From the NCBI RefSeq assembly GCF_006345805.1, contig NC_042999.1, positions 131,316,001-131,380,000 on the forward strand: a stretch of 64,000 nt of DNA, read 5' to 3'. Positions 6,524 to 41,017 of this stretch are shown one piece after another. The position numbers and the translations under genes were made by a program. Positions within the stretch are counted from its first letter, which is position 1, and the number at the start of each line of letters is the position of its first letter. A model generated the notes under the pieces. The model was not told the origin of the DNA. It worked only from the letters and a program-made list of their open reading frames with translations, and searched no databases. The stretch comes from Octopus sinensis. Lineage: Eukaryota.

Positions 6524-6552
6524 TATAAATTAGGGTATCTGAGAGATACCAC

Positions 6553-6732: not shown

Positions 6733-6769
6733 ATGAAAATAGCAGTCAAAACAATCTCCATGACTTTCT

Positions 6770-16795: not shown

Positions 16796-19700
16796 AATTA
16801 AAAATAATTGTTCAGTCAGGAAAAGACAATATTAGTCAATGACCAATGTTATTTTAATGATTCCGAAAAGCACGAATGATAGATCTGGCATGAATCAATC
16901 TTATTAGCCTCCTCAGTGAAGACACAGACTTCACAGTATTTGCTGAAGCAATGAGGAGGCAATCAAATAAGTAAATGAACAATAATGTTCAGTAGTTGGC
17001 AAGGAAAATTTCGAGGATAAGCCACAAGAGAAATACCTATTTTAGATCTTAAGGGTCATACTTATCTTATCCTATATCTAAGAGAAATTAAAGAAATATA
17101 AGGTCTTTGTTAAATGGACAGTTGCTGTTGACCAGGTTGATATAATGTCTCTCTCTTTCTGAAGCTCTGACCATTTGCATTTTGTTAAAATTAATGAATA
17201 TAAGTTCATGATTTTTAAAGGAAATAATGATCAATATAAAACAAATGTTTACATCAATATAGTTATAAATGATAGTTTCAGCCTTTAATGTAAACAAAAA
17301 CCCCACAAATGTTATCTGTCGATAGATGTGCCAACTAGCTGTAAATAGGGAGGTAGAATTTACCACTGTTACCAACAGAGGCTTGGTTTAATTAATGCCT
17401 TACAATACTGTGTTCAATTTTTTTCCTCTGGATAAAAGCCTGTGATATGTTGGGGTACAGAATTACCTCAACTTTAAATCCAACAAATATCACCACATTT
17501 GTTACATGAAGGGATTTATAACTTAAAATGGACATTATTTTCCAAACAAAAAATTTAAAGCTAATCAAAAATACATATAAAAAAATTTGGAAAATAAATT
17601 CATTTTTTGTGATGTGAGGAAACATAGGATCAAACAGATGAAAATACACAAGTTAAAGGACAAAATTTAGGATATACAAATTATGGATCGATGAGATGGT
17701 GGTAAAGGAGATTAGCAGTCTCATAACAATTACATTTTTTTTTTATTAAAATTCAAACAAAAATTTATTCTTCTTGAATCCTGTATTTTTCAGGAAGAGT
17801 TTTCTTCTGTTGCTGTATCTGAAATAACAGAAATTATGACAATATTATAACACAAGCATAAAAAAAATAGGATGAAGATAATTTGATCATAAGAAATATA
17901 TCATATGTACATATTCAAGTTAAACATCAGAACATTTTATTGCAATATAAACTTGTATAAGGTCTTAAGAAAGAGAAGACCATATCTGTAGCATGTTGAT
18001 GAAGTGAAGCCGCAACTGCAACTTTAATTTATGACTGAAATTAATTTTGAGTTAATTCTTCTCAACCAATTAGCTGTTAGTGTGATGCTATATTAGCTTG
18101 CATGCCTATTCACTGAAAGACATAGAATCTTATAGTAACAGAAACAGCTCAATATCAGCCATTTCCAATAACCAATCAGTAATTATGACATATTATCAGG
18201 TACACTTAGTCACTGATAGCTCACAGCTCACATACCAGATTTTTACAGAAGTACCAGAAACAACAGCTGACATTTCTAGCAGCTAGCAATGACACAACAT
18301 CAATTACACATTTACCAATAACAGTCAAACTTCAAAAACTTATACTTTGCTGCCTTTGTAGCATGCAACTTTCACATTTTCATGCCCTTCAATTTTCATT
18401 GTGTAAACACAACAGTGCAGAACTTTCTACAAGAAAAATTACACCACTATGCTCATTTCTTTTCAATAAAATTTCAAAGTTTGCAAGTATTGTTCTTCAC
18501 ATGGTAATTGAAGCCTTATATTAGCAATAATTTTATCATGTTGTTCAGGTTTGTTTGCAGTCAAAGAATATCTTAGGTTATCCTATAAATAATGCCCTGG
18601 TATTGTGTGAGAAGAAAAGTTTTCTAAATTTCATATTTTATTAAAATTCCTTCATTAACATGATTATCATAACCAATTGATGACCTTTTTGAAATAATTT
18701 ATAAGCTTTTTAATACCATTTGTGTAAAATTGCTTTCATTTGGTGAAAAAGAATGTACAGAGGGTAGTTTCTACTACATGCGTTTTGAGAACCAGTCTAC
18801 CAAGATGACCATAGACTTCGAAATTGGTGGTAATCAGATGAAGCTAGGTAAGGAGAGTGCTTCCTGACAAAGCACTTTATCTGGAAGGGCCCCCATTTTT
18901 TACTTAAAGCATGGAGACTCAAGTAAATTTACATTTTCTCAATATATACATGAAACGTTGAAAACTACTGTCAAAGCTGTTGCACAGCCTTCACCATAAA
19001 TTTTTTGCCCTTCTTCCATTATCCTACAGTATTCCCTGTACTGTTTTATGATACAATGTACTGTGAGGTGTGCAGTGCTATTTCAGGACACCTGCAACCA
19101 AATTTCAAGCAAGGGTATAACAAAAGTTTTCCATTATGATTTATGATTAAATTAATGAGTAAGGTTAATATTTGTAATGAATTTGCCATTTTCGATGGGT
19201 GTGTAGTGCACACCCAGAATATACACCCAGAATATATGCCCCTGATACACACACACACACATATATATATACACATATATATTTATGTTCAGCTTTTGCT
19301 GAACGACGTGCACAAATGTTCATATTGCACAATAGCTTATTCTCTCCATCAAATCAACATTGTTTTTGCAGGTGCACGGTGTACCATGCATCAGGTGTCA
19401 AAGTGATCACAGAGCAATATGAGATAAAGTGTTTTGCTTAAGAATACAATGCACCACCTGGTCTAGGAATTGAAATCATGATCTAGCGACTGTGAGTGTA
19501 ATATCCTAACCACTAGGTCATGTGCCATCACATTACACACAAGCACACACACACAAATAGGAGTGTATAACATAATGTGGCATAGTTATAGATGTGTGGT
19601 CCCTCAGTCTGACTTTGCTTCCTCATACATTTTGATGAAGTTTATGAATTATCAGTTCAACCTAACAAAAAATACTTTTCCTCATCAAATTCTAACATAA

Positions 19701-20284
19701 CTGTAATCTACATAACCTAAAACATATTTGTAAAAAAAAAAAAACATTAAAATATGCATTTTTCAGAAATTTACAAAGAAACAAAGTCAAGAGTGAGGAC
19801 AAACACTTCTGTAGTTGCCTACAATGTATTTACAAATGTGGAATGGCACTAACCCTAATATTTTGCTCCAGAGAAACTTCTCAAAAATAGATGTGTTAAA
19901 AACAACAGGGCCTCACTCAAAATGTTGATTGATCTCAGTGAAAAATACCTCAGACATTCTAAGCCAAACCAAAACATTTTCTGACATTCGTTTCGTTCAG
20001 TCATGTATATACATACATACATACATATTGATATATAATTACACACACACATGCATATACATAGACATTTATACACTTAGTTTACAAGTGATCTAAATGA
20101 TTAGGTACACTAGGTAAGTACTGTAACGGATTACAAGGGCTCCAAGGTTATAGCTGAGACAGTATTTATGGAGCCATTGCAGATTTCCGATGCAGAAGAT
20201 ATATAATTGCTAAAGAGAGCAACAAACGTTAAGGCAAGGCAAACATCTCAAGTCATATTCATTACTATTATTGGAAAAAATTCA

Positions 20285-20340
20285 GTCTTACAGCTGTTTC
20301 TGTAATATCCCCAAGTGTGGAATATTCTGTCATCAGAGAC
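20285..20340 (-). ncRNA. Minimal type-I hammerhead ribozyme motif
   Basis: GTCT-CTGATGA-CAGAATATTCCACACTTGGGGATATTACA-GAAAC-AGCT-GTA-AGAC. Confidence 0.75.
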
Positions 20341-20390
20341 AAATAGGGAAAATGAGAAGGGTGTACATACCCTTCTCATTTTCCCTATTT

Positions 20391-20446
20391 GTTTCTGATG
20401 ACGGAGTATCCCATACTCAAGGATATCCCAGAAACAGTTGTAAGAC
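20391..20446 (+). ncRNA. Minimal type-I hammerhead ribozyme motif
   Basis: GTTT-CTGATGA-CGGAGTATCCCATACTCAAGGATATCCCA-GAAAC-AGTT-GTA-AGAC. Confidence 0.7.
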
Positions 20447-20524
20447 TTTGAATTTTTTCTAATTATAATAATGTATAGGACTTGAGATGTTTGCCTTGCC
20501 TTAACGTTTGTTGCTCTCTTTAGC

Positions 20525-20562
<38 letters not shown>

Positions 20563-21009
20563 GTAAATTATGAAAAATCAATGAAAATGCATATTGCAAA
20601 TAGAAAAAGGCTATTTATGACAGGTAGCGACAAATATATACATTTAGATTGACTGAGGTAGTAATACAAGTCATAAAGGTCATTATTTTGAGATGATTAT
20701 AAGATGATAATAAAGTAAGAGAACAAAACGAACCAATGGTTTACGCGAAGCTTGCACATATGTAAATATATATACATATAGTCATACATACTAAATATAT
20801 ACTAATTTATATAAAACTTGCTGTGATTCATCTTGCAAATTAAGATGTTATAATCTATGTTGAATTCTGTCCCATCTTAAATTTGTATTTCCAAACCCTC
20901 TGGTGTATAACTATCATTGTATAGACAATAACCAGTGTGGAAATGGGGCAATTTTTTATGGGTATATAAGAATTAAAAGTGAAAATTATGTATGTATGGA
21001 CCCAAAGGA

Positions 21010-21720
21010 GTGACAATCCCAGAGTCCAGTAGAATGCGTGATCTCAGAATTGATATGAACAACAATGCTTCATTTCACATGCATGTCACCTAGATGGTAG
21101 CAATGCGCAGGCAAATTGCTGGTTGGATTCTGAAAACTTTAAGAACAAGAGACCAGGAAACTATGTGGGTTCCATGGAGAACATTTGTTCTCAGATGTCT
21201 GGACTACTGCTCTCAATTGCAGTTACCCCACTGTCAAATCTATAACAAAACTTGAGGCAGTTTAGCAATGCTACATCAGGAAGATTGCATCAATAGAATA
21301 GCTGAGCTACTGGGAGAGGCTGAAAGAGCTACGACTCTACTCCTTGGAGTGAAGATGGTAGAGATATGTAGTGATATACATATGGAAGATCCTGGAGGGG
21401 TTGACACCAAACTTTGACATCAAGAGCTATACTAACCCCCGAACTGGATGTCACTACACTGTTTCAGAGGTTGCTGCCACCCCATCTCATGTAAGGACCA
21501 CATACTGCAATAGCTTGGAGTTTAAATATCACAGCTATTTAATACCTCACCAAAACATCTGAGAGATCTACATGGAGTAGAAGTAGACGTTTTCAAGAAA
21601 CAACTTGACTTCCTGCTGTCCAAGGTCCCAGATGAACCTACACCACAGCAAGAAACTCAGAAGAGAGCAGCAATATCGAACTCCCTCCTTCATCAAAAGC
21701 CAATTACATATGAATGGCTA
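21010..21720 (+). mobile_element. CR1-like LINE 3' fragment
   Basis: AGWILKTLRTRD..LDYCSQL..LSYWERLKELRLYSLE..IYIWKILEGLTPNF. Confidence 0.8.
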
Positions 21721-21876
21721 CTGAAAAGGTGATAACATTGGCAGTGTTCCAACATGGCCACAGCCTTTGAACTGAAATGTGTAAAAGAGCAAAAGAATGC
21801 ATGTGTGTGTGTATATATATGTATATATAATTATATGTTTGTTTTTATGTTGTTATAATAATGTTTTTGGTAGAGA

Positions 21877-21922
<46 letters not shown>

Positions 21923-22460
21923 TCAACTCCAACTATTAAGTAATATTTTAATTTAATGTAAAATTGTTTATATTACAACATAAAAAAACATATATTCACA
22001 AACAAACAAACACACACACATACACACAGAAAATGAGTAAAAATAAGGAAAAATACAAGAGGGACAAATTTTTACAGAGATGTTAGTCTAATGCTTGAAA
22101 GGAAAAGGAAAGAGTCTTGATGTTTCAGACACTTTTCCTTCATTATGATCCATTATTGTTGTTATACTCACAAACATTCTTGTAATTTCTTAGAGTTGGT
22201 AACCTGACATTCGAACACGCTTATGATTGGCAAACTGTAAACTCATGAATACATTGTAATTTTTCTCTAATTACACAGACATTTTACTGACTAATGCAGC
22301 ACACGTTTATATACATTTTTATTTCATCAGCAGTATGTGGTTTGGAAACTAATTAATTTCCATTTCTGTAAATTGCATCAATCATTCATAAAAGATATAT
22401 ATATACTCATGTTTTAAGTTCTATTTTCCTGTTTCCATTACCAAACTTTTGTGTGTGTGT

Positions 22461-22534
<74 letters not shown>

Positions 22535-24550
22535 GAAGAGGCCATGCTTATGTAGGTTGTTTTAGGTGTGGCTTTTATTATATATGTATGTATTGGTTAA
22601 AACACTTTTTATGAAAAATAACTTCTTTCTCTCTATGCTATCTTCCCAAATTAGGAAGCTATCGTGTAGCCTTCTTGATTTCTGATATTTGTGTACACAT
22701 GTTTTCTCATCTGTCACTATACACCCAGTATGGTCTAAGAGAGTGTTTGGAAAAAAGCAGAGCTAAAGCAGCGTGAAACCCAGTAGATTGAGGAAGCCAT
22801 CTGTGTACTACAGGGGAATTTGGATATATATGATAATTTATATGTTCACAATATACAGATAGGTAATATAATTCTGGAATTTGGATAATTTGAAAGAAAA
22901 AAAAAATTAAATGCAGATGCAGTAATATGACAATCCTTGTATTTGGGACATTACTTTCACTTTTGCCATTCTGAATTTAGAAATATTTTGTTTCATGACC
23001 TTTGAAGAATGTTTCTCTTTCAGGAGTCATGCCTACAACCAACTTACTTGTCATAGGATTAAGACTTTCTGTGGTATTGTCCTTTTTTGTTGCTGTTATG
23101 CATACACACATATACACCCCACCACACAAACACATATAATGTTTCAAGAGAACATGTAATTATGTTTTAGAATAATAGTTTCCCAAAACACATCACACAC
23201 AGCTTCTTTTATTCTAATTTTATCTTTATCTGATTTGATATTACTATTGTCTAGGTTCTGTCTGCTATTTCACCATTTTTATTCTTATGTCAAAATTATT
23301 GTTTCCTCCCAATGTAAGCAACATACAATGCTCAACTGTTGCATAATGTAAGAGCACACTTTTTGATACAAGTCTGAAGTGCCACTCTAATGTTTAAAAC
23401 CACAAATATTATGTAACTTTTCACATGAAACTTTTGCATGCAATGGCGTTAAATCCAGTGTGGTACCAGAACAATTGTTAATGGTCATTAAAGATGTGCT
23501 AAGCTTTTTCTCTATTTTCATATTTGTATATATATATATATATATACATACATACATATATACATACATACATACATATATACATACACACACACACACA
23601 TACACTGTGATGCTCCAGCATGGCCACAGTCAAATGACAGAAAAATCCTTTAAGATGTTGGTACACACAAGTGCACACACATTTTGTGAGATCCACTTCT
23701 TTTAAAAACAGGTCTATTTTTTAAAGCACGAAAGATGTTTCTTTTCAAAAATGGTGATACTTGTGTTGAAGCTTACCGCAGGACTTGCTTCTTTTGCCGA
23801 TTGCTTATTTTCTTCAAAGAACTTTATTCTGTCAGTGTTGTTGTAAGTGATATCCATGTCTGATTCTTTCTTTTTCATTGAGTTACCTGTTTAATAATTC
23901 ATTTGTGATTTTGTTCTTTATTGCATGGGAACTTTCTTGGGACATGTTTCATGCATACATTTAACATTATTGGCATATATTCGATCCTTTTTACCATATT
24001 TCTGTTGAAATACACTGACTTTGTTTCAATTTTTAAAATAAAGAATTTAGTGAAATAACTTCATTATAAAATTGTTTGGAAAGTATACTAACATGAAATT
24101 TTGATGCCAATTGAGACCATTCTTATCTCGATTATGCAAAGCTCCAGTTTTTAAAACAGGAGGTTTGTTTAATAAAAATAGGAATGGTCTCAATTGGGTT
24201 AATATCAAAACGAGTAAAGCATATATTTAACTAGAAAATTCTTTAATTTATATTCTCTAGGATGAATTTGGGGACAAAGCACATTGAATATCTTTTCCTT
24301 TATTGATTTCCGGTGAATCTTGTGGATAATTATGTTCAGGGAGTGTTTGAGTGCTTTTTGTAAAGTTTATAATTGTGGTGGCCTTGTGTATTGATGTGAG
24401 TAGCTTTGTGTATGCTGTAACTAGATCAGCTTATGCACATTTCTCTCTGTTGACTTTAAAATACTGTATTGTTTCGCTACAGTGACAACATGTGTTTTGG
24501 TGTAAAAAGAGTTCCTGTGTCAAGTCTCCCACAAATGATTGTACTGGCAT

Positions 24551-24763
24551 CTTTTCCACTCTAGGCACAAGGCCCAAAATTTTTGGGGAAGGGACCAGTT
24601 GATTAGATCGACCCCAGAATGCAACTGGTACTTAATTTATCAACCCTGAAAGGATGAAAGGAAAAGTCAACCTCAGCAGAATTTGAACTCAGAATATAAA
24701 GACAGACGCAATACCGCTAAGCATTTTGCCTGGCATGCTAACATTTCTGCCAGCTCGCTGCCT
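24551..24763 (-). mobile_element. tRNA-derived SINE family B (copies at about 2378-2525, 35549-35746, 38750-38958, 57307-57528, 57609-57822, 63893-64000)
   Basis: Head GGCAGCGAGCTGGCAGAAATGTTAGC..GAGTTCAAATTC; body GACTTTGCCTTTCATCCTTTC.GGGTCGATAAA. Confidence 0.85.
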
Positions 24764-25748
24764 TGATTGTACTGGCATCTGTAATAGAAGCACTTTTGCT
24801 ATTGATGCCTTGTAAAGTATGAAGATTGCTTGGTGTGCTTGCATTCAACCACATCTTTACTATATGTTCATTGGTAGACATCATCAAGGCTTGGGGATAA
24901 ACAGAGTGGTAATTTCTCAATGTCTATAATTATCATGAATGTGGTACCTAAAATTTACTGATTTTCTCTCCATTGATAAGACTGTATTTATTTGGGGGAT
25001 TTACTTGGTAATGTTGTCGTCCTCACTATTTTTAGATCCAGTTTTAACAACATCAGTTTAGTTCCCTTCTTTATGCACTTCTGCAGCTGAAGGTAGTAAT
25101 AGTTGTCTTTGTGTTCTCCACATCATTCTTCTTTATGGTGCTGGTTATATCGCACGTTCGGATGGTGTACCTTCATCAATGATGTACCTCTACTCAACTA
25201 CCAAACTCTCACTTCCGATGACTTGACTCAACAGAACTTGATGTCTAGTCTACTCACGGCTCCAGCTCGCTCTCTTGACGCTTCTCATCTAGCTATCACG
25301 TCCACTATCTATACATATTGAACTGACCTACTTATCATCTGGGGGTGTCCATACAACAGTGTTTAAACACAGATATCAAATAATGTATTTATGATTTCAT
25401 TTAAGCAGCTGTGTTAGTTTTTTTAAAAGCAGGAAAAATTTTCTTCCATCCAATTTGAGCAATGAACTATTGGTACCCATAGGTTATCAAAGCTTCTCTT
25501 GAGGTGACCAAATAACAGAGTCATTAGAATGTCTGATAGGTTACCTTATGCCATCTACTCTGGATTTCTGTACACTGAATTCAAATACTACCAAGGTCAA
25601 CTTTGCCCATCATTTTTTTAAGGGTTGCTAAATAAATTACTAGTCCTATATTGAAGTTGATTCTTCTTCCTTCTCTTTCTGGAAGAAATTGGTTGTATAT
25701 ATGGCTGGAAAAGGATGGTCAAAATTCATGTCAAAAGAAATAATGCAG

Positions 25749-26107
25749 GTAACAAACTGTGGTGACCCTTGTTGTGGGTTTTGTGTGAAATAACTGAACA
25801 AGGAACAAACAAAAAATTCAAGAATAGAAAGGAATTGAAGATGAATGTAAACATGAGTTGCAAAATAAAAATTTCATCTACTACATCATATGTTCGCAAT
25901 GCAATGACAACTATACTGGGCTAACTGAAACAAAAATTAAGAAGAATGTGAGAGTGCACAAACAGCAAATTAAGGATTCATGCCCAAGAAATGTTCCATA
26001 TATTAAATATCTAAGACATCTGAGCAAATGAACAATTCAAATAATTTCCTTCTTTCAAGAAAAGAGAAGAATACTTTATAAGAATTCTGAAACTTAACAG
26101 GAAATAG
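25749..26107 (+). pseudogene. Penelope-like element GIY-YIG endonuclease remnant
   Basis: VTNCGDPCCGFC (Cys linker), NMSC, then frameshift to NKNFIYYIICSQCNDNYTGLTETKIKKNVRVHKQQI (IY..C..C..YIG.T motif). Confidence 0.75.
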
Positions 26108-26324
26108 TCAATAACTAAAAACAAATCTATATGGATAACCCCTTAACACATGTGTTTCAAAACTGAATAATGAAAGTGTTACATACAATACAAAAACATC
26201 ATTCCAAATAGTTTGTGATATTCTTGGTTTTTAAAGACGTTTTTCTTTAAATAGTTAATTGTTAAGAAACCTTTTATTTAAATATTGTGACTGCTTCATG
26301 TACTTTATGCAAAAACATTTTTCA

Positions 26325-26363
<39 letters not shown>

Positions 26364-26366
<3 letters not shown>

Positions 26367-26569
26367 AGAATTCACACAAAAAAAACCAAAAGATGAAGAC
26401 AGGTGGTGTAGAAAACAAACAGATGTATTAGTATAATGCTCGGGAATTGAAAAAGTCTTTAACGTTTCGAGCCCACACTCTTCCACAGAAAGGAACACAG
26501 AAAGAAACAAAGAGAGAAACGAAGAGAGAAAAAAAATGTGTGTAGTGGCTACCGATGTATTATGGCGAG

Positions 26570-26620
<51 letters not shown>

Positions 26621-26827
26621 GGGAGAATTCACACAAAAAAAACCAAAAGATGAAGACAGGTGGTGTAGAAAACAAACAGATGTATTAGTATAATGCTCGG
26701 GAATTGAAAAAGTCTTTAACGTTTCGAGCCCACACTCTTCCACAGAAAGGAACACAGAAAGAAACAAAGAGAGAAACGAAGAGAGAAAAAAAATGTGTGT
26801 AGTGGCTACCGATGTATTATGGCGAGT
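26364..26827 (-). mobile_element. Tandem dimer (2 x 207 bp, period 257) of an HHR-like short element in (TA)n; relatives at 35016-35191 and 40814-40987
   Basis: Apparently identical copies 26364-26570 and 26621-26827; CTGTGGA-AGAGTGTGGGCTC-GAAACGTTA on minus. Confidence 0.8.
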
Positions 26828-26832
26828 ATATA

Positions 26833-26866
<34 letters not shown>

Positions 26867-26870
<4 letters not shown>

Positions 26871-27275
26871 GCATGTTGGACAGCAGACAGGTATCTTCCA
26901 TGGTGTCCATCGAATTGGTCCCCAAAATCAAACAGGGAACAAGGCTACTGGAGTTCTGTGATGCAAATAACCTATTGATCTGCAACACCTAGTCACCTGA
27001 TAACTAATGAATCACTTAACTGTGCTAGCCAGATTGATTACATTCTCACCAGACAGCGGGATGCATGGTTGCTCTTAAGTACAAAGACCCTCCCTGGTGA
27101 TGAATGTACCCTGCAACATAAACTAGTCATTAGTGATTTTAGACTCCAGGTCACAGGGATGCCAAGAAGCAGACCAATCTAGAAAAGAAGGATTTGAAAG
27201 TTTAAAGACTCTTCATATGGTCAGAGATTTAGGGACATCATAATTGAGGAATTTAATGAGAGTTACAGACTTGTG
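26867..27275 (+). mobile_element. RTE LINE endonuclease fragment
   Basis: KQGTRLLEFCDANNLLICNT..QIDYILTR; homologous to 30240-30685 in opposite orientation. Confidence 0.8.
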
Positions 27276-28834
27276 ACAGACTTTGGCTGTATTTTTCTTG
27301 CAGCTGCCTAGTACTAACTCTAACAGTTTCTTTGGCTGAACTGCTATGTTATAGGTACATAAACATATTAACAACGGTTGTCAAGTGGTAGTGAGGGACA
27401 GACACACACTCATATATATATATATATATATATATACATACATACATATGACAGGACTCTTTCAGTTTCTGTCTATGAAATCCACTCACAAATTTTGGTC
27501 GGCCTGAGACAATAGTAGAAAGCACTTGTCCAAAATGCATGCTGTGAGATTGAATTGAGAACATGGGGTTGAGGTGAACTTCTTACCACAGAGGCATACC
27601 TGCTCCACATATATATATATCCATACATATATGCATATATGTCTACACATGTGTATTCATATATATATATATATATATATATGAATATGTATATCTGCAT
27701 ATATAAATCGCAGTATGTGTGTGTATAATGACTAATGTATACATTTCCACAATTCTCAACCGATTTTCATCAAACTTTACACATACATTACTTGTGTTCC
27801 AATGACAGTCATGTACTATGACATTTTCCCCAGAGCTCCCGCGTAATTGAACATAAATGGACACAGTTATTTTGTATGTAGGGTCTTCCATACTTTTTTA
27901 ATCTTTTTATAAAAGTAAAAGGATTTTGTCTATTTCCGCTGTCCACCTACAATGATTATTCAATTGACTAGGAACACTGTACATGATGAATATCCAATAC
28001 CAAACTATCTTAATCTACATATTTAAACTGCATTAAACTTTGGCAAGCTTACCTTTACCTATTCTGAGTTATTTGAAAGGTAATGTTCCCTTCCCTTTCT
28101 TCTGTTTGTTGACATCTTTGTTTACCTTTGATACAGTTGTTTCACTTTAAGGATGCTTATTTACCCATCCATTATGGTATTTCGATTGTTGTCCATTGTT
28201 TCAAATACGTTTTAGCATTGTCGTTCTAGCACTTTTTAAACAATCACATATGATTCTTCCCAAAGAATCAACCTTTAAATAAGAGTTTTGCTTCCACTAG
28301 CGAAAGCTATACATATCTTTCAGAAAGCTCCATACCAATTTAACTTTATGTAACATTTGCTGTTAATTTATGTACAAGCTATGTGGGAAGACAGAATAAA
28401 GGGGATTTTGTTAGCTTATCTCTCCAAATAGCTCCTTTTGCAGCTTAATAAAATAAACTTGCAGAGGGGAAGTTTCCATGTCTTCCTTCAATTTCATTAC
28501 ACCATTTATATGGCTGTTTCTGACAAGAAATTTCGCTTTCATGTAAAACAACTATATTTTGAAGCCATTATCCATAATCTACTCCCAAAACACTTCAGGG
28601 GCTCTACTTTGCATCACTTGCAAACTTATATGTTCTGTGATCATTAAAGTGCAATGACCTCCACATTAACCAGCCTTCAATTTCATTTACCGTTCCTAGG
28701 TTAATTGGAAATATTGATTGCTGTACTACTCATAAACCTTCTTGGTAGTTCAATTATTTGGTGAAAGAAGTACCACCAAAGCAACTTAAACCGTCCATAG
28801 GATGAGTTTGTTTGCTAGTATATATATATATGTA

Positions 28835-31120
28835 TATGTACCTCTTATGCATCCATAGCTTACACTGGGTATATCTTATGGAATTTCTACCTACAACTAT
28901 TTTACAAATCGAGTAGAGCCACCTACCTGAAGGGGTTTGTGATGTGTTTGCCTTCCTACTTACTGGGACATTGGTTTTTGTAACATTGATTCTAAGGTCC
29001 ATTGATTCTAAACCTTGTTTCCACACCTGCAATTTCTTCTCTAGTTCTGGTAGTAATTCCGCTATGAGAGCAAGGTCATCAGCATAGAGGAGCTCCAAAG
29101 GGCAGTCTGCCTTGAATTCCTCTGTTATTGCCTGGAGGACTATGATGAATAAGAGGGGGCTTAGGGCTGATCCTTGGTGAACCCCTACTTCTACCTGGAA
29201 TTTCTTCACTATATTTATTGATGACCCTTACCTTACTAACGGCATCCATGTACAAGGCCTGTACAGCTCTTATTAACCACTCGTCAATCCCCAGTTTCCA
29301 CATCGCCTTTCAGATAAGGGATCGGGGAACCCTGTCAAAGGCTTTCTCCAAGACAACAAAAGCCAAGTATATCTTCGGCTAGGTATTTCTCCTGCAGTTG
29401 CTGTACCAGGTATATATCATCAGTGGTGCTTCTACCTGGTACAAAACCAAACTGCATCTCATCTAAGCAGACTCTCTCCCTAATTAGTTGGGCTATGACC
29501 TAGATCATCACCTGATCTAGCAGTTTGATACCCCTGCAGTTATTTCTATCTAAAGCATCACCTTTACTTTTGTAGCAGTTGACTATGGTGCTGCTACCCC
29601 AGTCATTGGGTATAACTCCTTCATGAACTACCTGGTTTACAATACAGGTGACTAGGCCACGACCCACACTACCAGATATTTTAAGCATCTCAGCAGTGAT
29701 TCCTGATGGACCAGGGGCTGTTCCTAACTTCATATCCTTAATTGCTTTATCTACCAGGGTACTATCTATTCGGATAGCTAGTCAGAATTTGGCAGCCTCT
29801 CCTCCTCCCATTCATTCTCCACATTCAGCAGCCTTTCATAATGGCTTCTCCAAGCCTCTTTCTTTTCACAATCATTAAAAGCAAGTGCACCATCATCCAT
29901 GCAGACACATTTCTCTCCTGTGACATCACAATTTTCTCTCACACTGTCTTACAATCCAAAATACTTCAATTCGTTGGTCCTCTCGTCATTGAACATTGGC
30001 AAACTTCTTCTTTTCTGCTTCTCCCTTGGCTATGTATACCAGTCGCCCAGCCTCCCTTCTGGCTATCAGGTACAGTTCCCTGCTACCCCTACTCTTTCAG
30101 GCCTGTTTCTTTGCCTTGTCTACCATATTATTCCACCACGTTACTCTAGGTCTGGAAAAGACTTTGCACCAACCATAGATTTGGTCTGTGGTGCTCAGTA
30201 AGCTGTCCCGTAGGAATTTCCAGTTACCTTCTATGTCCAAAATCTGTAGCTCCTCCTCCCTCTCATCAAATTTCTCAATGAAGGTGTCCCTAAATCTCTG
30301 ACCATGTGATAGGTTCTTTAGCTTCCAAATCCTTCTTTTCTGGATTGGTCTGCTTCTTGGCATCCTTCTGGCCTTGAGTCTAAAGTTACTAATAACTAGT
30401 CAATGCTGGGGATCAGGTACATTCTTCATCAGGAAGGGTCTTTGTATTTAAGAGCAACTATGCATCCTGCTATCTGGTGAGAATGATATCAATCTGGCTA
30501 GCAGAGTTGTCTGATTAATGGGTTATCAGGTGGCTGTCTGGCTTCCTGAAGTTAGTGTTGCAGATTAATAGGTTGCATGCATCACAGAACTCCAGTAGCT
30601 TAGTTCCCTCTACGTTTTGGGAATCAATTCCATGGCTCCTGTGAACACCATAGAAGATACCGGATAGCCATCTGACATGCCCATTAAAATCTCCAGCCGC
30701 AAAGATGAAGTCAATGCCACTTGTCTTTGAGGTAGCCTGTAGAAGGGTATCATAAAAGTGGTCCCTCTGATTGTTTGATAACCCCCGCTTGTGTGGCGTA
30801 GGCAGAGATAATTGTAGCTATACTGTTCTGCAGGACTAGCCTGAGCTTAAACACTATCGCATACTCTGACTACTTCTATGACTTTACCCATTCATTTCTC
30901 TGCAAGGAGTATGCCTACACACCCTACTCCATCACTGTTACCTTTCCAGAAGATTTTATACCTATGTGCCTTGCCCGTGAGGATCCTCACTGAAGCTCCT
31001 CTCCACCTTACCTCTTGCATGCAGCATACATCAACATGTCTCCATTCATGCATCTTTACAATCTCACTAGAATTACCTTTCAGTGTGCCTACATTGACAG
31101 TGCCAACTCTAAAAACAAGG
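28835..31120 (-). mobile_element. Decayed RTE-clade LINE (APE and RT)
   Basis: VGTVNVGTLKG..DVCCMQEVRWRG; APGPSGITAEMLK..RGIKLLDQ; GVHQGSALSPLLF..LLYADDLAL. Confidence 0.9.
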
Positions 31121-31993
31121 AAAGGAATGTGGGAGGAGGCATGGGGAGGGGAGATGTTATTCAGTGCCTGAAAAGTGTTTTTGTGTTCATTTGATAAATA
31201 TGCTACAACTGTTCTCACTTTTGACCTGTCATCACTCAAACAATCAAGTATGTTACGATTGTTGCCTTTACTGGGGGTAGGAGTAGGTGATAGTTGCGTT
31301 ATAAGTATAAGCATTATGAACATCGTAAAATCGTAAATTCAAGCATTACTGGAGTTGCAAATATAAGTAAATCAATAAAGATAGATAAAGAAGAAGAAAA
31401 TATGAATATCAATATGCTAATGTTAGATTAAGTAGGTGGGAAGCTAAACTAGTTGCATTTCTCTCAGGAGAGGGAGAGGAAATTTCAGGTATGATAGATG
31501 ATACCACCAATGAGTGAGGGAGTCTCTGGTGAGAGAAGAGAGGAACAAGCACGCCCATATACACCCATGCATACAAGAACAAGCACCCACACACCCACAC
31601 ACACAAGACAAGTATCGCCACAGACAAGAACAAATGCACACACACACACACACATGGAACATGCACGCATGTATAGCCCACTTCAATACGTCCATGGAAA
31701 TTAGTGAGTAGTTTGTTGACAAATTTCGAGGCAAGATGAAAGATAGCCGATTAAGTAAGTGGACAGCTAAACTAGTTGCATTTATTCTGAGAGAGAGAGA
31801 GAGAGAGAGAAGAGATTGCAGGTATGATAGAGGATACCACCAGTGAGGGAGTGGGTTTCCAGTGAGAGAAGAGAGATATCCGGTAATGGTGGTGGAAGAA
31901 GAGAGATATGCAGTGTTGGTGGAGGGAGAAGAGAGAGGGAAAAAAGAGAGAGATCGGGTATTGGTGGTGGGGGTGGGAATGGGTGCACCATGA

Positions 31994-32888
31994 ACAAGGG
32001 TTAATTTAGAGAGATGGCATGAAAAATATGTAGCCAAAGAGATTCCATTTAGAAAATTACTTGAAGAATTAAGAAGGAACGAAAGCTGAGGGAGAGAGAG
32101 AGAGAGATTTAGGAAGTTATATATTGAAGGGTCAATTTAAATAATTAGCTTACCAAAGTAGATATTAGTAAATAATACATAAATAAATAAATGTAAATAA
32201 TAATACATATTAAAAAGTGTTAACAGCAAATGGATGAGTGAATAGATTAAAAAACGAGAGAATATCTTAGCTTAGCAATGCATAATTGAGCATCCAAGAA
32301 CAATATAAGTTGAGATTGCATGAAAAACAGGAAGGAAGTATGTGAGTAAAGTGTTTTATAGGTATGCTACGACCAGAAGTGGACATTATGGACATTCCTT
32401 CCTGGGCCGGAGACAATAGCAATGATAGTAGCAGAGAATAGCATAAGGAGCCATAGCGAGTGGGAAGACGTAAGAGAATAGTATGCAAAATACTAAAAGA
32501 AATTTAGCCAACATGAAACCCAGACAGAACAGGCACTGCGAACAAGCAAGGGTTAATTTAGAGAGATGGTATGAAAAATATGTAGCCAACTTGAGAACAC
32601 AGGAGGGGAGGAGAAATTCCATTTAGAAAATAACATGAAGAATTAAGGAGGAATGAAGGCTGAGAGAGAGATTTATGAAGTTATATATTGAAGGGTCAAT
32701 TTAAATAATTAGCTTATGAAAGTAGGTATTAGTAAATAATAAATAAATAAACGTAAATAATAATACATATTAAAAAGTGTTAATCGTGAATGGATGAGTG
32801 AAAAGATTGAAAAACGAAAAATGAGAGAATATCTTAGCAATATCATAATTGGGCGTCTGAGAACAATTTAAGTTGAGATTGCCTGAAA
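31994..32888. repeat. About 335 bp direct repeat pair (31994-32326, 32546-32888); shorter pair at 31425-31540 and 31750-31875
   Basis: aagggttaatttagagagatgg...aagttgagattgc.tgaaa occurs twice. Confidence 0.85.
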
Positions 32889-33499
32889 TATAATATTGAA
32901 ACATAATATTATTTCAAGTGATATCCTGGCTCCCAAAAACGACATTGTGCATGATCTTCATGGTACCATCATTCAACATGTACCAGTGCAATCTACATGG
33001 TAGAAATCAGTTCACATTATATGCTACCAACTATCCAACTGATTTTAAAGTTTCTTTAGGATATTACTGTCCCTCCACACAGTTTGGGATAGCCCATTAA
33101 TGTTTCCACAAAATCAGACACATCAAAGCTCTGCAATTGTACAAGACCAGCCATCAAATTTCTTATACCTCAGGGGATTGAGACACCACAACTGATTGGT
33201 TGTGCAAGAGAGATGTTTTCATGTTTACGTTCAGTGCATTCACCCCTCATCCTATCAGATATGCTATGGAACTTCAACTCCCATCACTTGGCAGTGACAC
33301 TATCTTCTTTGACCATCAACAAGCCTGAGAGATACTCCCTCAGAGTTGGTGGAACTGGACTGATACATTAATGTTTCCTTCATGGTCTGCTCTATGCTGT
33401 ATACTCATGTACTGGGCCAAGCAAACAACTTTTACAAAGCACCAAACAGCTAAACAAGAAATGCTATCCACCCCCAAAGCTCTTGCTGAAAAAAGAAAA

Positions 33500-34602
33500 C
33501 ATTTTCTGTTAGAATTCCTTGTGTTTTATGTGTGGCATCTCAATTTGACTGACCATCCAAATGATTTTGAAGACTGCAGAATAAATGATAATCAGGTGGG
33601 GCACTGTCTGGCGAATATGGTGGGTGGGGCATTGTTTCCCATTCAAACTGCTCCAGCCTTTCAAATGTCATCCTCGCTGTATGTAGCTGAGCATTATCCT
33701 GATGGAAGAACACCTTTTGTCTTGAAACCAAAGATGGTCATTTTTTCTTCTAGTGCTGATTTAAGCTGCTTGCAGTAGATCTCCTTTATTGTTTGGTTTG
33801 GGCTTAAAAGTGCAAAGTGGACTACACCTTTCATATCCCACTAAACAGATAACAACACCTTATGTGAGTAAAGACCTTCTTTAGCTTGGGGTGCTGGTAT
33901 TTCACTTTTCCCTACTCACTGTCTTCGGTGCTTGACATTTTTATAGAGAACCCATTTCTCACCACCAGTCACTATTCGATCCAAGAAAGGTTCATTCATG
34001 AGATGTGACAGCAAAGAAGAGCACACATTCACTCTCTGTGCACGATTAGACTCAGGAAGTTTGTGAGGAACCCACTGACCCAATTTTCTGACTTTTCCGA
34101 TAGCATGCAGGTTTTGATAAATGGCTGAATGACCAAATCTAAGCTTTTCTGCTAGTTCCTCAACAGTTACAATGGGATTTTGTTTCACCAGGGTTTGCAG
34201 GATGTCCTTGCTGAGCTCTACAGATCTTCCAGGATGAGGCTCATCTTCTAGGCTGTAGTTTCTGACTCAGAATTTCTGGAATCACCGATGACACTGGCTT
34301 ACACTTATTGTCCGATCCCCATATACCACATTAATATTCCTCACACATACTGTTGCATTGTTGCTTTTATTGAATTCATAAAACAAAATATGCTGAATAT
34401 GCTCCTTTGTCACTTTCATTACTACTTTGAAAAAATAACTGTTAAAATCGAACAGCACTCTTCAAAACTTGCACTAAGAATAAGGACAAGGTAAAATTAC
34501 TACCTGCTTTTATAGCAAGTTGACGCAGGTAGTTTATCTGGTCTCCCTCCAACTTTTAGTTCATGCAATTGAAAAAACCCACATTATTTATGGGATGACA
34601 TA
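33500..34602 (-). mobile_element. Mariner (DD34D) element, 3'-truncated
   Basis: WVPHKL, IVTGGEKW, HQDNAQLH, YSPDSAPPDYHLF; TIR-like TTATGTCATCCCATAAATAATGTGGG at right end. Confidence 0.9.
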
Positions 34603-35464
34603 ATATATATATATATATAATTTAATGAACACAGTACAAAGATAAAAGCTACTAATAGTTTCATTCATTGGAGACATGAGTCTAAGCAAATTTTTATAAC
34701 ACACCTTGTGTCTCAGAGCAAAGTGATATTTATCTCCATGGATCTCTTGTAGTTGTGGCAGATACTGGTGTCATGCAAATGGCACGTAAAAGCACCGTTA
34801 CACTCTCAGAGTGGGTGGCATTAGGAAAGGCATCCAGCTGTATAAACCATGCCAAATCAGACTGGTGTCTGGTGCAGCCTCCCAGCTTGCCAGCCATGGT
34901 CAAACTCATGGTAGCATGGACAATGGATGTTAAATGATGATGATGATGATGATGGAGTACTTTTTTGTTGATCTTACCTTAAAGGAAAAGTGAACTGTAT
35001 ATATATATATATATAGGGAGAATTCACAAAGAAAAAACAAAAGACGAAGACAAGTGGTGTAGACAACAAACAGATGTATTAGTATAATGCTCGGGAAGTG
35101 AAAAAGTCTAACATTTCAAGTCTACGCTCTTCCACAGAAAGAAAGAAATGAGAGAATATAAAGAATGTGTAGGGGCTAGCAATCTATCATGATATATAAT
35201 GTGTGTGTGTGTGTGTGCATGTGTGTAATATAGTCTCCCTTTTACTCTTTTGCGCATTTCTGTCATTTGACTGCAGCCATGCTGGAGCACCACTCTTAGT
35301 CAAAGAAATCAACTCCAGGACTTATTCTTTGTAAGCCTAGTACTTATTCTATCAGTCTCTTCTGCCAAACCACTAAGTTTTGGGGACATAAACACACCAA
35401 CATCAGTTATCAAGCAATAATGGGGGGACAAACACAGACACAATGACACACACATAAATATAAT

Positions 35465-35518
<54 letters not shown>

Positions 35519-37518
35519 CACACACACGGTGGGCTTCTTTCAGTTTCTTATTTCTTTACTGCCCACAAGGGGATACACACAAAGGGGACAAACAAGGACA
35601 GACAAATGGATTAAGTTGATTATATCGACCCCGAAAGGATGAAAGGCAAAGTCAACCTTGGCGGAATTTGAACTCAGAACGTAAAGATAGACGAAATACT
35701 GCTAAGCATTTCGCCCAGCGTGCTAATGTTTCTGCCAGCTTTCCGCCTTCTTTCAGTTTCTGCCTACCAAATCCACTCACAAGGCTTTGGTAGGCCTAAG
35801 GCTATAGTAGAAGACACTTGCCCAAGGTACCATGCAGTGGGACTGAATCCAAAACCATGTGGTTGGGAAGCAAGCTTCTTACCTCATAGTCACACCTGTG
35901 CCTGAGTGACAAAATTAAAATTATCAACAAGCATGAATTCAAAATCATCACATATCACAGAAACCTGGAAAACATTCAACTTTAAACACGTCTGCATTAC
36001 AGTAAAAATATATGTAAATTTAATTATGTACAAAAAGCACTATATAAAAATTTGCTAAAAGTTAAATCATTAAACAAAAGTAATATTTGCCACCTGATCA
36101 ATGCTTGGTACCTCTGCTAGTATGTATGTGTGCATGTGCATTATATGTATTTTTTCATTTGTTTACAGCTTTCAGTCACTGGACTGTACCATGCTGGAGC
36201 ACTACCTTCAAGGGTGTCATTGATTATATCAACCCTAGTACTTTGTTACTGAATCTGTCTATTTTGAGTTATGTCCCTTTGGGTATAAATATTAAAATGT
36301 AGACAATGTGAGTGTGTGCGTGTGTGCATTATATATTTGCATCTAGATATATCTATATGTTTGAAACTTCTTATATTTTCCTTTGCATCTTTTACTCTGT
36401 TAAGAAAGATGGTGTCAAATGCAGTTTTTAAGTGTGAAAATGTTATATTAGTGCAAATATAAATAGTTATATGCTAACTTTTCAATAAAAAAAGAAAGAA
36501 AGAAAAAAGAAAAATTAGTAGTAATCATAACTAGTTGGACATGTGAAAACTTCACAGAAAACATTAAAAAATGTAAGCATCTGTAAATTGTGTGCTGGTG
36601 ACATGAGAAATATTTCTATATTGTGACACAGAATATAGAAAGAAGAGTAAAATCTATAACTATATAATCCAACAAAATATCTCAGTTGCGCAAGAATAAA
36701 CAGAATTACTATTTGTCCTTAATATACATCGTACATATTCAAAGAACTTTCTTGGTTTAGTGGTATGGAATGTTCTTCTGGTATTCTTTTATTCTTTTAT
36801 CTGTTTCAGTCATTTGATGGTGGCCATGCTGTAGCACTGTACTTTAGTCAAAGAAATCGACCCCTGGACTTATTCCCTGTAAGCCTGGTGCTTATTGTAT
36901 CAATCTCTTCTGCCGAACAGCTAAGTTACAGGGATGCAAACACACCAACATTGGTTGTCAAGCAATGGTGGTGGGGGATAAACAGACAGAAACACACATA
37001 CATAAATTAATACATATACTACATACACATGACGGACTTCTTTCAGTTTCTGTCTACCAAATTCACTCATGAGGCTTTGGTCGGCCCGAGGCTGTTAGTA
37101 GAAGATACTCTTTAAAGTAAAAAGTTGAATTTTGTGTAGCCAATGGTTGGCAACTTTTCTCCACCACCCATTTTTTGGTCTCTTTTCACAGTTGTACCCC
37201 GTTCAAAATGTGCCTGAAAATAAAAAACATAGTCTTTCCTCCCAACTAAAAGACATGAAGAACTATGAAAGAAGGCGAATAAGTACCGGAGGTGGGGGAA
37301 AGAAGAGAGAACTAACACTCAATCATTCTAGAACTCCCAGAATAAAAACATAAATACCTGAAAGATTTTCCCTCTATTCATTACTAAATGTCTTTCCCTC
37401 TTCTTCATTGTTAAAAGTAAAGAAGCTAGAAAAGACTGATCATATTTCAGTCTAATAGTCCTTGTAGATGACTGAGGCTTTCCTCTCTCTGTCTCTACCG
37501 TTTCACTCCTTTACTCTA

Positions 37519-37830
37519 TGGTTAAGATAATGAAGGTGATTAGCCCACAATTGTAAAGTCATGAGTACAATTCCCGGTGGTGCGCTGTGTTCTTGAGCAA
37601 GGTACTCTACTTCACCTTGCTGCAGTCCACTCAGCTGGCAAAAATGAGTTGTAGTTGTAATTCAAAGGGGCCAGCTTTGTCATATTCTGTGTGAGGCTGA
37701 ATCTCCCTGAGAACTGTTATGGTATGTATATCTGTGGAGTACTCAGTCACTTGCACATTAATTTTATGAGCAGACTGTTCCATTGATCAGACAAACAGGA
37801 ACCTCGTCGTTGTAAGTGAAAGTGTGTCAT
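37519..37830 (+). mobile_element. SINE family C (copies at about 10320-10636-, 19330-19530-, 38145-38300+)
   Basis: Shared CAGTCCAC..AGCTGGCAAA..GTAATTCAAAGGG..GAATCTCCCTGAGAACT body. Confidence 0.7.
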
Positions 37831-39049
37831 TTTTTAGGAAGAGTGAAAGAAAAGGAAATGTTCTATATTGTAAGGCAAAAATGCCATGTGTTTAGTATAA
37901 GTAGTGAAAGCTAAGATGAAATAATTGCTATTCCATCATGTATTTGCCCTTGACTCATGCTCAGTTTGATAATAACAGCCTGTGCATCAGTGTTTATCTG
38001 GGGACTTGGCCTCCAGATTGGTGAGACCCACAAATACTGCTGTTAGGACTGGATTAACACCCATAGTGACCCTAGCAACTAAAAAGATTTTCCTGTCCCT
38101 ATATAGGATGTTTTTAAATTTTCTTCCAACTACTTCAAGGTTTATGTTGCTCCAGTCCACTCAGCTAGCCAAAATGAGTTGAAGCTGTAATTGAAAAGGG
38201 TCAGCCTTGTCATATTCTGTGTGAGGCTCAATCTCCCTGAGAACTATGTTAATGGTTTGCATGTCTGTGGAATACTCAATCACTTGCGAGTTAATTTTAT
38301 CCTTGTGTGGTAATGAAAAGTGAAAGTGACATCCAATATTTGCTGTAGTTATTTGTCTTTGATTTAACAATGTGTCTATGTATCAACTTTTCTATTGATC
38401 TATGTATCTACTGTCTCTCTCACTTCCTCTGTGTCCCTCCCCTCTCCCGCTTTTAATTTAACATTGTGTATATGTATCTATGTATCAACTTTCCTTTCAT
38501 TCTATGTATCTACTTTTCTTGTGATGTGATAAACATTTAAATACACAAAATGAACGCCATCACCACTCACTGCCTCTTTCACTCTCTCTCTCTTTTACTT
38601 CCCCTCTCTCACTTTGCCACTTCTCCTGTGAAGTAAGTGTGACACACACCACAGGTATGTACAAAAACAAGTTGGTGTATTAATATTATTTATAATAATC
38701 CACATGCTATTCTCTTAATTCATATTTTTTCTGTGCTTATTGAATATTGATTTCAAATTTTGGCACAAGGCCAGCAGTTTTGGGGGAATGGATAAGTCAA
38801 TTACACCAACCCCAGTACTCAACTGATATTTAATTTATTGACCCTGGAAGAATGAAAGGCAAAGTCAAGCTCAGCAGAATTTGAACTCAAAACCTAAAGA
38901 CAGATGAAATGCTGCTAAGTATTTTGCCCAGTGTGCTAACAATTTTGCCAGCTTGCCTTGAGCTTATAACTACAGAGATGAATAAAGATTCGGTTTACAT
39001 GAGGATTTTTTCTGGTGACTAATCTTGTAACAAAATATACAAACTAACA

Positions 39050-40983: not shown

Positions 40984-41017
<34 letters not shown>

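What the first reader, a model, noticed from the sequence alone, without database searches (positions are those of the whole stretch)
20201..20534. Cleanest double-ribozyme palindrome, with both cores intact
About 163 bp arms with a loop of only a few nt. The outer (about 50 bp) and inner (about 28 bp) segments are essentially perfect inverses. The two stem II regions differ at many positions yet keep CTGATGA, GAAAC and GTA-AGAC, and each can still form a hairpin. This suggests the arms came from two different template RNAs or that the cores are constrained. The motif layout matches the 3890 HHR but the flanks are unrelated.
Basis: seen in the sequence. Interest (0 to 1): 0.7.

Follow-up and report, generated by a model that had tools for sequence, protein, structure and literature searches.

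The report
Decaying Penelope retrotransposon double-ribozyme hairpin
This 336-base palindrome in an octopus gene intron carries two back-to-back hammerhead-ribozyme motifs and is likely the dead, randomly decaying end-piece of a Penelope-type retrotransposon that folded back on itself while inserting, a known and common kind of relic.

Summary
The palindrome is real. Arms lie at 20199-20362 and 20369-20534 around a 6-nt centre, and each has a type I hammerhead motif reading outward. It sits in the last intron of one Octopus ARHGAP44/SH3BP1 isoform and ends in TA repeats. This fits a head-to-head, 5'-truncated Penelope-like element (PLE) terminal repeat, closest to the Hydra clade; that layout is published.

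All 8 arm differences at helix positions are one-sided, and each pair is Watson-Crick in exactly one arm, so neither arm keeps the stem intact. Across four such palindromes in the window, core sites changed at 4 of 90 (4.4%), equal to background (4.4%). Intact cores here are expected by chance (p about 0.26). In a transcript the long hairpin beats the ribozyme fold by about 50-66 kcal/mol.

One residue remains: differences cluster (9 of 17 in stem II) and the outer 56 bp are identical (p 0.007-0.03; 0.07 after ten palindromes). That segment holds a splice-acceptor-like signal, and the cleavage site overlaps a donor-like GTAAGA. No family consensus was available, so two templates cannot be excluded. 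Verdict: new member of a known kind, low interest.

The parts
20199..20362 (-). Left arm: 5'-truncated 3' end (pLTR-like) of a Penelope-like element, reading outward from the centre; same strand as the host pre-mRNA
20369..20534 (+). Right arm: inverted copy of the same segment, reading outward; includes the first bases of the TA run
20362..20369 (.). Head-to-head junction: 6-nt centre GTACAT (20363-20368), or a self-complementary TGTACA (20362-20367) followed by a 2-nt indel; candidate fold-back point (inferred)
   Evidence: sequence
20391..20446 (+). Type I hammerhead motif, right arm: helix I 20391-20394/20443-20446, core 20395-20401, helix II 20403-20412/20420-20429, GAAA 20431-20434, helix III palindrome 20434-20441 (one C>T), predicted cleavage after 20442
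20285..20340 (-). Type I hammerhead motif, left arm: helix I 20340-20337/20288-20285, core 20336-20330, helix II 20328-20319/20311-20302 (base pairs next to the core broken), GAAA 20300-20297, perfect helix III palindrome ACAGCTGT, predicted cleavage after 20289
20479..20534 (+). Outer 56 nt identical between arms (partner 20199-20254); holds a branch-like CTTAAC, a pyrimidine tract and TAG ending at 20523
20440..20523 (+). Candidate retained 84-nt intron of the element (GTAAGA to TAG; 82 nt at 20291-20210 on the minus strand); its donor overlaps the ribozyme cleavage triplet. Untested lead.
   Evidence: post hoc motif criteria; background 1.2%
20528..20559 (.). (TA)16 right flank, likely target microsatellite; the left flank keeps only ATATAT at 20199-20204. 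No target-site duplication can be told apart.
17823..40065 (-). Host context: about 22-kb last intron of an Octopus ARHGAP44/SH3BP1 isoform (P0004, P0003); boundaries good to a few bases; the P0001 isoform ends at 39811 and need not include it

Best explanation
This is a head-to-head palindrome of two hammerhead-bearing segments in an octopus intron, likely the inactive remnant of a single Penelope-like retrotransposon insertion whose arms were likely identical at birth and have likely decayed without selection. Inferred steps: (1) the element's GIY-YIG endonuclease nicked a TA repeat and its reverse transcriptase copied only the last 160 or so bases of the RNA, which include the ribozyme; (2) the new cDNA end folded back at the self-complementary GTAC/TGTACA and was copied again, giving an inverted, 5'-truncated second copy; (3) the arms then mutated independently, roughly 5% each (about 15 My on a published octopus calibration; about 30 My if only the diverged middle is counted); (4) patchy arm-to-arm repair, or chance, left the inner 24 and outer 56 bp identical. 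Today the ribozymes are predicted to be silent: on either strand the antisense arm is transcribed first and pairs with the sense motif, and no second sense copy is present in cis to complete the short palindromic helix III. Shown: geometry, motifs, difference pattern, host intron. Inferred: PLE origin (about 0.9), fold-back, age, silence.
For: Type I hammerhead layout with palindromic helix III, U-rich upstream and AU-rich downstream fits the PLE consensus in PMC4209133 Fig S3. Helix III starting AC and ending GT, a spare base on each side of helix II, a 3' end about 157 nt from the motif's start and a TA target fit the Hydra table of PMC8557442 (23 of 25 families there lie 87-210 nt from the end, counted by hand). 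A Hydra family is reported from Octopus bimaculoides. Opposite-strand ribozyme pairs 100-700 bp apart are described in PMC4209133, inverted 5'-truncated copies in PMC8557442, and head-to-head repeats with junction palindromes read as self-priming in PMC3846280. Decay: 8 of 8 helix differences one-sided, best allele mix -16.1 against -6.5 and -7.7 kcal/mol, 14 of 17 events at G/C-containing columns; core change 4 of 90 against 4.4% background; each of the three other hammerhead palindromes has a damaged core. In the 42.7-kb and 4.8-kb palindromes the spacer carries ribozyme sequence continuous with one arm, as truncation plus inversion predicts. The hammerhead fold costs +50 (minus strand) and +66 (plus strand) kcal/mol.
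Against: No PLE coding sequence is attached, and a six-frame motif search found none in the window, so origin and clade rest on the ribozyme and layout. No family consensus or third copy was found. Differences are clustered beyond simple uniform decay: 9 of 17 in 29 columns (hypergeometric 4e-4, scan-corrected 0.012-0.018); longest identical run p 0.007-0.03, Sidak 0.067 over 10 palindromes, Fisher 0.011 for all 10 and 0.074 without this one. Only 3 of 16 substitutions are CpG-type, and one CpG in the outer segment is intact in both arms. At one stem II pair the 3.9-kb family has G-C, the left arm A-U and the right arm A.C, which could mean the left arm carries a compensation the right lacks. 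The 4.8-kb palindrome shows one both-sided stem II change, although in a CpG context (read by eye). Rfam finds no hammerhead.
Confidence: 0.7

Rival explanations
1. Two-template insertion: a dimeric PLE protein primes reverse transcription on both target strands using two different RNAs, perhaps held together by their palindromic helix III, and the two cDNAs join at the GTAC palindrome. Part of the arm difference would be subfamily or source-copy difference, and the identical outer 56 nt would reflect constraint on the element's 3' end.
For: Clustering of differences. The identical segment holds an acceptor-like signal (background 1.2%). The anole PLE protein cleaves and extends both strands in vitro and is predicted to be a dimer (PMC11167929). 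One stem II pair can be read as compensated in the left arm only.
Against: 0 of 8 helix differences are compensated and both arms are damaged about equally; functional subfamilies should keep helices. Clustering is marginal after ten palindromes. Both arms end at the same base and join at a small palindrome, which one folded cDNA explains with fewer steps.
Confidence: 0.17
2. The palindrome is a non-autonomous element amplified as a unit (MITE-like or hairpin-type), so the double-ribozyme form and some arm differences were inherited from a palindromic master.
For: Both arms end exactly at TA, like terminal inverted repeats. The C.A mismatch closing helix II is shared by both arms.
Against: No second copy in 64 kb. 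The four hammerhead palindromes have unrelated flanks and different spacers (6-20 nt), and one lacks half a ribozyme in one arm, as expected for independent truncation events. A C.A closing mismatch also occurs in a published PLE ribozyme (PLE-X1_cBra).
Confidence: 0.07
3. The host keeps the hairpin or ribozyme for a function, for example an intronic double-stranded RNA for A-to-I editing or small RNAs, or a cleavage site that affects the choice of the last ARHGAP44 exon.
For: It lies in an isoform-specific last intron on the transcribed strand and would form a 165-bp hairpin of -226 kcal/mol. Heavy editing in coleoid cephalopods is recalled, not checked.
Against: Cores decay at background rate. 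Helix II of the sense-strand ribozyme is broken at its base. The fold is masked. A/G (5) and C/T (7) differences are balanced, with no editing-like bias. Ten similar palindromes occur in 64 kb. Rfam miRNA hits are far below gathering scores and reflect any hairpin.
Confidence: 0.06

Closest known systems
Hydra-clade Penelope-like elements (Craig et al. 2021, PMC8557442; e.g. Hydra-1_Obim, Hydra-1_Amil, Penelope-1_NV, Penelope-1_SK, Penelope-13_HM)
   Same: Type I hammerhead near the 3' end; helix III AC...GT, in several families acag/ctgt; a spare base on each side of helix II; (TA)n target; an inverted 5'-truncated copy with a ribozyme on each strand (Penelope-13_HM); present in Octopus.
   Different: Here acag and ctgt abut with no loop (1-3 nt loop in all 25 listed families), helix II is longer (10 bp), no ORF is attached, and the ribozyme is not that of Hydra-1_Obim by eye.
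Minimal and palindromic-helix-III hammerheads of metazoan PLEs (Cervera and de la Pena 2014, PMC4209133)
   Same: CUGANGA-H, short helix I, long helix II, palindromic helix III expected to work as a dimer; dual motifs on opposite strands 100-700 bp apart were already noted in Schistosoma, and a second opposite-strand motif in a Cotesia bracovirus PLE.
   Different: There is an extra A between helix II and GAAA (1 of 56 motifs in their Fig S3 shows AGAAA); no cephalopod is in that survey.
Head-to-head inverted pLTRs with junction palindromes of Adineta vaga Penelope (Arkhipova et al. 2013, PMC3846280)
   Same: Inverted, 5'-shortened terminal repeat joined head-to-head at a palindrome, read as self-priming.
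   Different: There the structure usually precedes an ORF and a further pLTR, with a TSD and an optional 30-40 nt tail; here only the two inverted ends exist, both stop at the same base and no TSD can be read.
Non-LTR retrozymes (bioRxiv 10.64898/2026.07.22.740005)
   Same: Non-coding, type I hammerhead, PLE-derived.
   Different: Retrozymes are head-to-tail tandems with two sense ribozymes; this is inverted, with one sense ribozyme per strand.

Membership tests
Type I hammerhead motif (PLE type) | Catalytic core CUGANGA, GAAA, UH | tested here: met
   12 of 12 core positions canonical in both arms
Type I hammerhead motif (PLE type) | Helices I, II and III can form | tested here: inconclusive
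   Helix I 4 bp in both; helix II 8 of 10 pairs in each, base broken on the left; helix III palindrome broken on the right. The isolated hammerhead fold lies 7-10 kcal/mol above the best fold.
Type I hammerhead motif (PLE type) | G10.1-C11.1 pair directly before GAAA | tested here: not met
   Both arms have C.A there; the first G-C pair is one step in and only in the right arm. Published PLE variants have similar spare bases.
Type I hammerhead motif (PLE type) | Match to an Rfam hammerhead model | tested here: not met
   No hammerhead among the hits at gathering or E<=10
Type I hammerhead motif (PLE type) | Self-cleavage activity | not testable with these tools
   Needs an assay; predicted masked in the full transcript
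Penelope-like elements (EN+) | RT plus GIY-YIG ORF | tested here: not met
   No ORF in the element; no PLE motif hit in six frames of the window. Expected for a 5'-truncated remnant, so it is filed as a remnant, not as a full element.
Penelope-like elements (EN+) | Hammerhead in the terminal repeat near the 3' end | tested here: met
   About 157 nt from motif start to end against 87-210 in 23 of 25 Hydra families
Penelope-like elements (EN+) | Inverted 5'-truncated copy joined head-to-head | tested here: met
   literature
Penelope-like elements (EN+) | AT-rich or microsatellite target | tested here: met
   (TA)16 right, ATATAT left
Penelope-like elements (EN+) | 30-40 nt tail at one end; TSD | tested here: inconclusive
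   Both arms end at the same base; TA repeats hide any TSD
Penelope-like elements (EN+) | Nucleotide homology to a PLE family with an ORF | not testable with these tools
   No eukaryotic genome or repeat library available; the prokaryotic genome scan gave 0 hits
Hydra clade | RT/EN signatures (RWK, DKT, no CCHH, CxCX5C linker) | not testable with these tools
   No protein present; features
Hydra clade | Ribozyme layout and (TA)n preference | tested here: inconclusive
   Similar but loopless helix III; TA targeting is shared with Naiad, and microsatellite bias with Neptune
Non-LTR retrozymes | Head-to-tail tandem with at least two sense ribozymes | tested here: not met
   Inverted; one sense motif per strand
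MITE / non-autonomous DNA transposon | Many uniform copies with fixed inverted ends and TSD | tested here: inconclusive
   No second copy in 64 kb; the genome could not be searched

The most novel reading that the evidence does not exclude
The arms were copied from two different RNAs of an octopus PLE family, paired through their palindromic helix III and reverse-transcribed on both target strands. The family carries an 82-84-nt retained intron whose 5' splice site sits on the ribozyme cleavage triplet, so splicing and self-cleavage exclude each other, and constraint on the acceptor explains the identical outer 56 bp. Thousands of such palindromes would then be a fossil record that tests one-template against two-template PLE integration.
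Probability: 0.12. Interest if true: 0.6.

Novelty: new member of a known kind. Interest (0 to 1): 0.2.

Why it matters
As a single locus it matters little: head-to-head PLE ends with a ribozyme on each strand are published (PMC4209133, PMC8557442, PMC3846280). As a class it has some use. How PLEs form inverted ends is still open, and octopus seems rich in them (4 hammerhead palindromes among 10 palindromes in 64 kb), so arm-versus-consensus comparison across the genome could separate fold-back from two-template priming and measure arm-to-arm repair in short palindromes. They would also be a source of intronic double-stranded RNA. Searches for 'hammerhead ribozyme' + 'octopus' (4 works listed) and 'Penelope' + 'Octopus' + 'Neptune' (1 work) found no description of these octopus palindromes, and the main text of the 2026 O. 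vulgaris repeat paper has 0 hits for 'palindrom' and 'ribozyme'. Its supplement, Repbase, Dfam and subscription papers were not seen, so the family may already be in repeat libraries.

Tried and rejected
Rfam at gathering (whole window) and at E<=10 (20150-20600): no hammerhead; the miRNA hits are generic hairpin matches far below gathering. A pattern scan of prokaryotic genomes for the ribozyme gave 0 hits. A possible third copy at 45970-46062 was rejected: nhmmer E 0.36, alignment scores 41.5 and 44.4 within a null of 209 windows (maxima 49.5 and 47.3), and absent from the model search. A six-frame search for PLE motifs (partly read, partly recalled) gave 3 hits, none in a credible frame. 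Pfam on 12 of the 51 ORFs of 100 aa or more found only LINE-type RT/endonuclease and DDE/HTH transposase pieces. A supplement search of PMC8557442 found 0 hits for the helix III motif and 7 unrelated hits for GTAAGAC. The first longest-run test across palindromes had an edge artefact for the 13.6-kb palindrome and was redone. The first splice-acceptor background used a stricter cut-off than the observation and was redone. The pair count on four rows is weak because the 3.9-kb rows are gapped in stem II; it shows no covariation above shuffles (354 of 500). An editing-derived origin of the differences was rejected (A/G 5, C/T 7). An assembly artefact was rejected because the arms differ at 10%. 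Metagenome and viral contig collections stayed unchecked.

Full report
Observation. The inverted repeat runs from 20199 to 20534, with arms 20199-20362 and 20369-20534 and the centre GTACAT. Over 166 columns the arms differ by 16 substitutions (12 transitions) and one 2-nt indel. All 17 events lie in columns 25-110 from the centre; the inner 24 and outer 56 columns are identical. The repeat scores 425 bits against 30-45 bits for the best local inverted repeat in 10 simulated windows. Each arm, read outward from the centre, gives helix I, CTGATGA, a 29-nt helix II region, GAAA, a near-palindromic helix III, GTA and the second strand of helix I. Rfam does not score it as a hammerhead, so the call rests on layout.

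Context. The ORF at 39811-40464 (minus) is 100% identical to Octopus sinensis ARHGAP44 and 99% to O. vulgaris over the covered part; the species is not resolved. Isoforms P0004 and P0003 leave that exon at 40066 through a GT donor and end in a short exon at 17822-17793 behind a TTTCAG acceptor. The palindrome is therefore in an isoform-specific intron of about 22 kb, and the left-arm motif is sense in the pre-mRNA. The right flank is (TA)16 and the left flank keeps ATATAT. Nine other non-microsatellite palindromes were examined, with arm divergence 2-21%. Three of them (3830-4070, 4797-4981, 42749-42980) carry hammerhead motifs in the same head-to-head layout with unrelated flanks. At 42.7 kb the 5' half-core lies in the spacer and only the right arm has a whole motif, the mark of truncation followed by inversion.

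What it is. In PMC4209133 (main text parts 1-2 of 4 and supplement parts 1-2 of 3 read) metazoan PLEs carry hammerheads with short helix I, long helix II and palindromic helix III, expected to act as dimers and weak in vitro; dual motifs on opposite strands 100-700 bp apart were seen in Schistosoma. PMC8557442 (passages, the Hydra section, supplement part 2 of 59 and supplement searches) describes inverted 5'-truncated copies, TA targeting and the Hydra clade, with an Octopus bimaculoides family. Its ribozyme table shows helix III from AC to GT in all 25 Hydra families, several as acag/ctgt, spare bases on both sides of helix II in most, and a distance to the 3' end of 87-210 nt in 23 of 25 (my hand count; about 157 here). 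PMC3846280 (passages and Discussion) reports head-to-head repeats with palindromes at the junction and reads them as self-priming on an antisense template. The junction here contains TGTACA. PMC11167929 (parts 1-2 of 4) shows a PLE protein that cuts AT-rich DNA and extends both strands, with a protein-assisted ribozyme that is dispensable for insertion in vitro. The retrozyme preprint (part 1 of 5; supplements not seen) defines retrozymes as tandems, which this is not. The locus is best filed as a PLE terminal remnant, Hydra-like, with the clade unproven because no ORF is attached.

Are the cores constrained? No sign of it. Six differences fall in the 10 pairs of helix II, one in helix I and one in helix III. 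All 8 change one side only, and in each case one arm has a Watson-Crick pair and the other a mismatch (4) or G.U (4). The best of 512 allele mixes is a perfect 10-bp stem at -16.1 kcal/mol; the real arms (-6.5, -7.7) sit near the median of the mixes (-7.0). Across the 8 arms of the four hammerhead palindromes, 4 of 90 core sites have changed, against 4.4% background per arm-site. Choosing palindromes by a recognisable ribozyme favours intact cores, so this test is conservative.

One template or two? Where direction can be inferred (8 helix sites plus 2 sites of a CpG in the loop), 4 changes are left and 6 right, and 8 of 10 are GC>AT. That is decay from one sequence. Against a purely uniform process: 9 of 17 events lie in 29 columns (scan-corrected p 0.012-0.018); 6 of 14 remain after 3 CpG-type events are set aside (p 0.019, rising to 0.065 with GC weighting). 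The 56-column run has p 0.010-0.023, 0.034 without CpG events or 0.007 with trimmed ends, which is 0.067 over ten palindromes; the other nine combine to p=0.074. One stem II pair is G-C in the 3.9-kb family, A-U in the left arm and A.C in the right, and the 4.8-kb palindrome has one both-sided change in a CpG context. So a mild excess of patchiness is unexplained. Arm-to-arm conversion is the simplest addition (one search listed such work for large palindromes; abstract starts only), and two source RNAs remain possible. Without the family alignment this cannot be settled.

Likely working. Inferred: nicking at (TA)n, reverse transcription of about 160 nt, fold-back of the cDNA end at the small palindrome, copying back to the target, repair, then neutral decay. 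Arm divergence (JC 0.105, or 0.052 per arm) gives about 15 My on the 0.09 = 25 My scale in PMC13282606 (passages and one section read), or about 30 My if only the middle counts. In a transcript of either strand the antisense arm comes first. The full hairpin (-226 and -235.5 kcal/mol) beats the hammerhead-constrained fold by 50 and 66 kcal/mol, even the isolated motifs prefer other folds by 7-10 kcal/mol, and no second sense motif is present in cis. Cleavage of the host intron is therefore unlikely.

A lead. The cleavage triplet overlaps GTAAGA, a donor-like word, and 82-84 nt later comes a branch-like CTTAAC, 12 of 15 pyrimidines and TAG, inside the identical outer segment. A site this good follows 1.2% of random positions in the window (criteria set after seeing the site). 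The 42.7-kb element has weaker candidates at 42 and 66 nt (background 7%), the 3.9-kb one lacks a branch match and the 4.8-kb one has no donor word. PLEs are known to keep introns near the ribozyme, so a retained intron is plausible but untested.

Verdict. Observation confirmed; interpretation partly supported; new member of a known kind; interest 0.2. The bolder reading (two RNAs, intron overlapping the cleavage site) has probability about 0.12 and would deserve 0.6. No eukaryotic genome or repeat library could be searched, and the metagenome and viral contig collections stayed unchecked.

Noticed in passing
window 3830-4070: Head-to-head hammerhead palindrome of another family, beside TA runs; same helix III; the right core is mutated and 12 nt are deleted after the cleavage site.
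   Followed up: partly
window 4797-4981: Head-to-head hammerhead palindrome with a 4-bp helix III and 1-nt loop like the Hydra table entries; right core G8>A; one both-sided stem II change in a CpG context.
   Followed up: partly
window 42749-42980: Palindrome where only the right arm has a full ribozyme (5' core in the spacer, long loop II); 10 of 12 substitutions are CpG-type.
   Followed up: partly
window 26326-26868: Direct tandem of 257 nt (98% match) separated by TA runs, each unit with a minimal hammerhead-like motif on the minus strand with A6>U (26468, 26725); looks like a young PLE partial tandem.
   Followed up: no
window 44437-44971: Longer TA-flanked palindrome (17% arm divergence) with CTGATGA in one arm but no complete type I layout found.
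   Followed up: no
window 11429 (minus): Single hammerhead-like motif with one core mismatch and a palindromic helix III.
   Followed up: no
window 6550-6735, 13587-13682, 15406-15747, 24107-24197, 60160-60399: Further short-spacer palindromes without a recognised ribozyme; the 13.6-kb one lies inside a common repeat with 63-nt units (SINE label recalled, not tested).
   Followed up: partly
window 20440-20523 (+) and 20291-20210 (-): Donor-like and acceptor-like splice signals bracket 82-84 nt; on the minus strand they are cryptic sites inside the host intron.
   Followed up: partly
window 20404-20418 and 20421-20428 (+): The two AT>GC changes in the right arm each perfect a short local palindrome, possible templated mutations; single instances, untested.
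   Followed up: no
window 17793-17822, 39811-40458, 48366-48680 (minus): Last exons of Octopus ARHGAP44/SH3BP1 with alternative 3' ends: read-through to a stop at 39811 or splicing from 40066 to a 10-codon exon 22 kb away.
   Followed up: yes
window 15799-15869 (+): tRNA-like Rfam match (36 bits) within a locally duplicated region; probably a pseudogene or SINE head.
   Followed up: no
window 28754-31338 (-), 33916-34266 (-), 43852-44157 (+), 40990-42309: Broken LINE-type RT/endonuclease pieces, HTH and DDE_3 transposase pieces, and a 1.3-kb element with TA-flanked inverted ends.
   Followed up: partly
window 45970-46062 (+): Scattered resemblance to the ribozyme halves; not significant (E 0.36).
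   Followed up: yes
window 58074-58484 (+): ORF whose last third looks like a coding exon of another gene; no Pfam hit.
   Followed up: no
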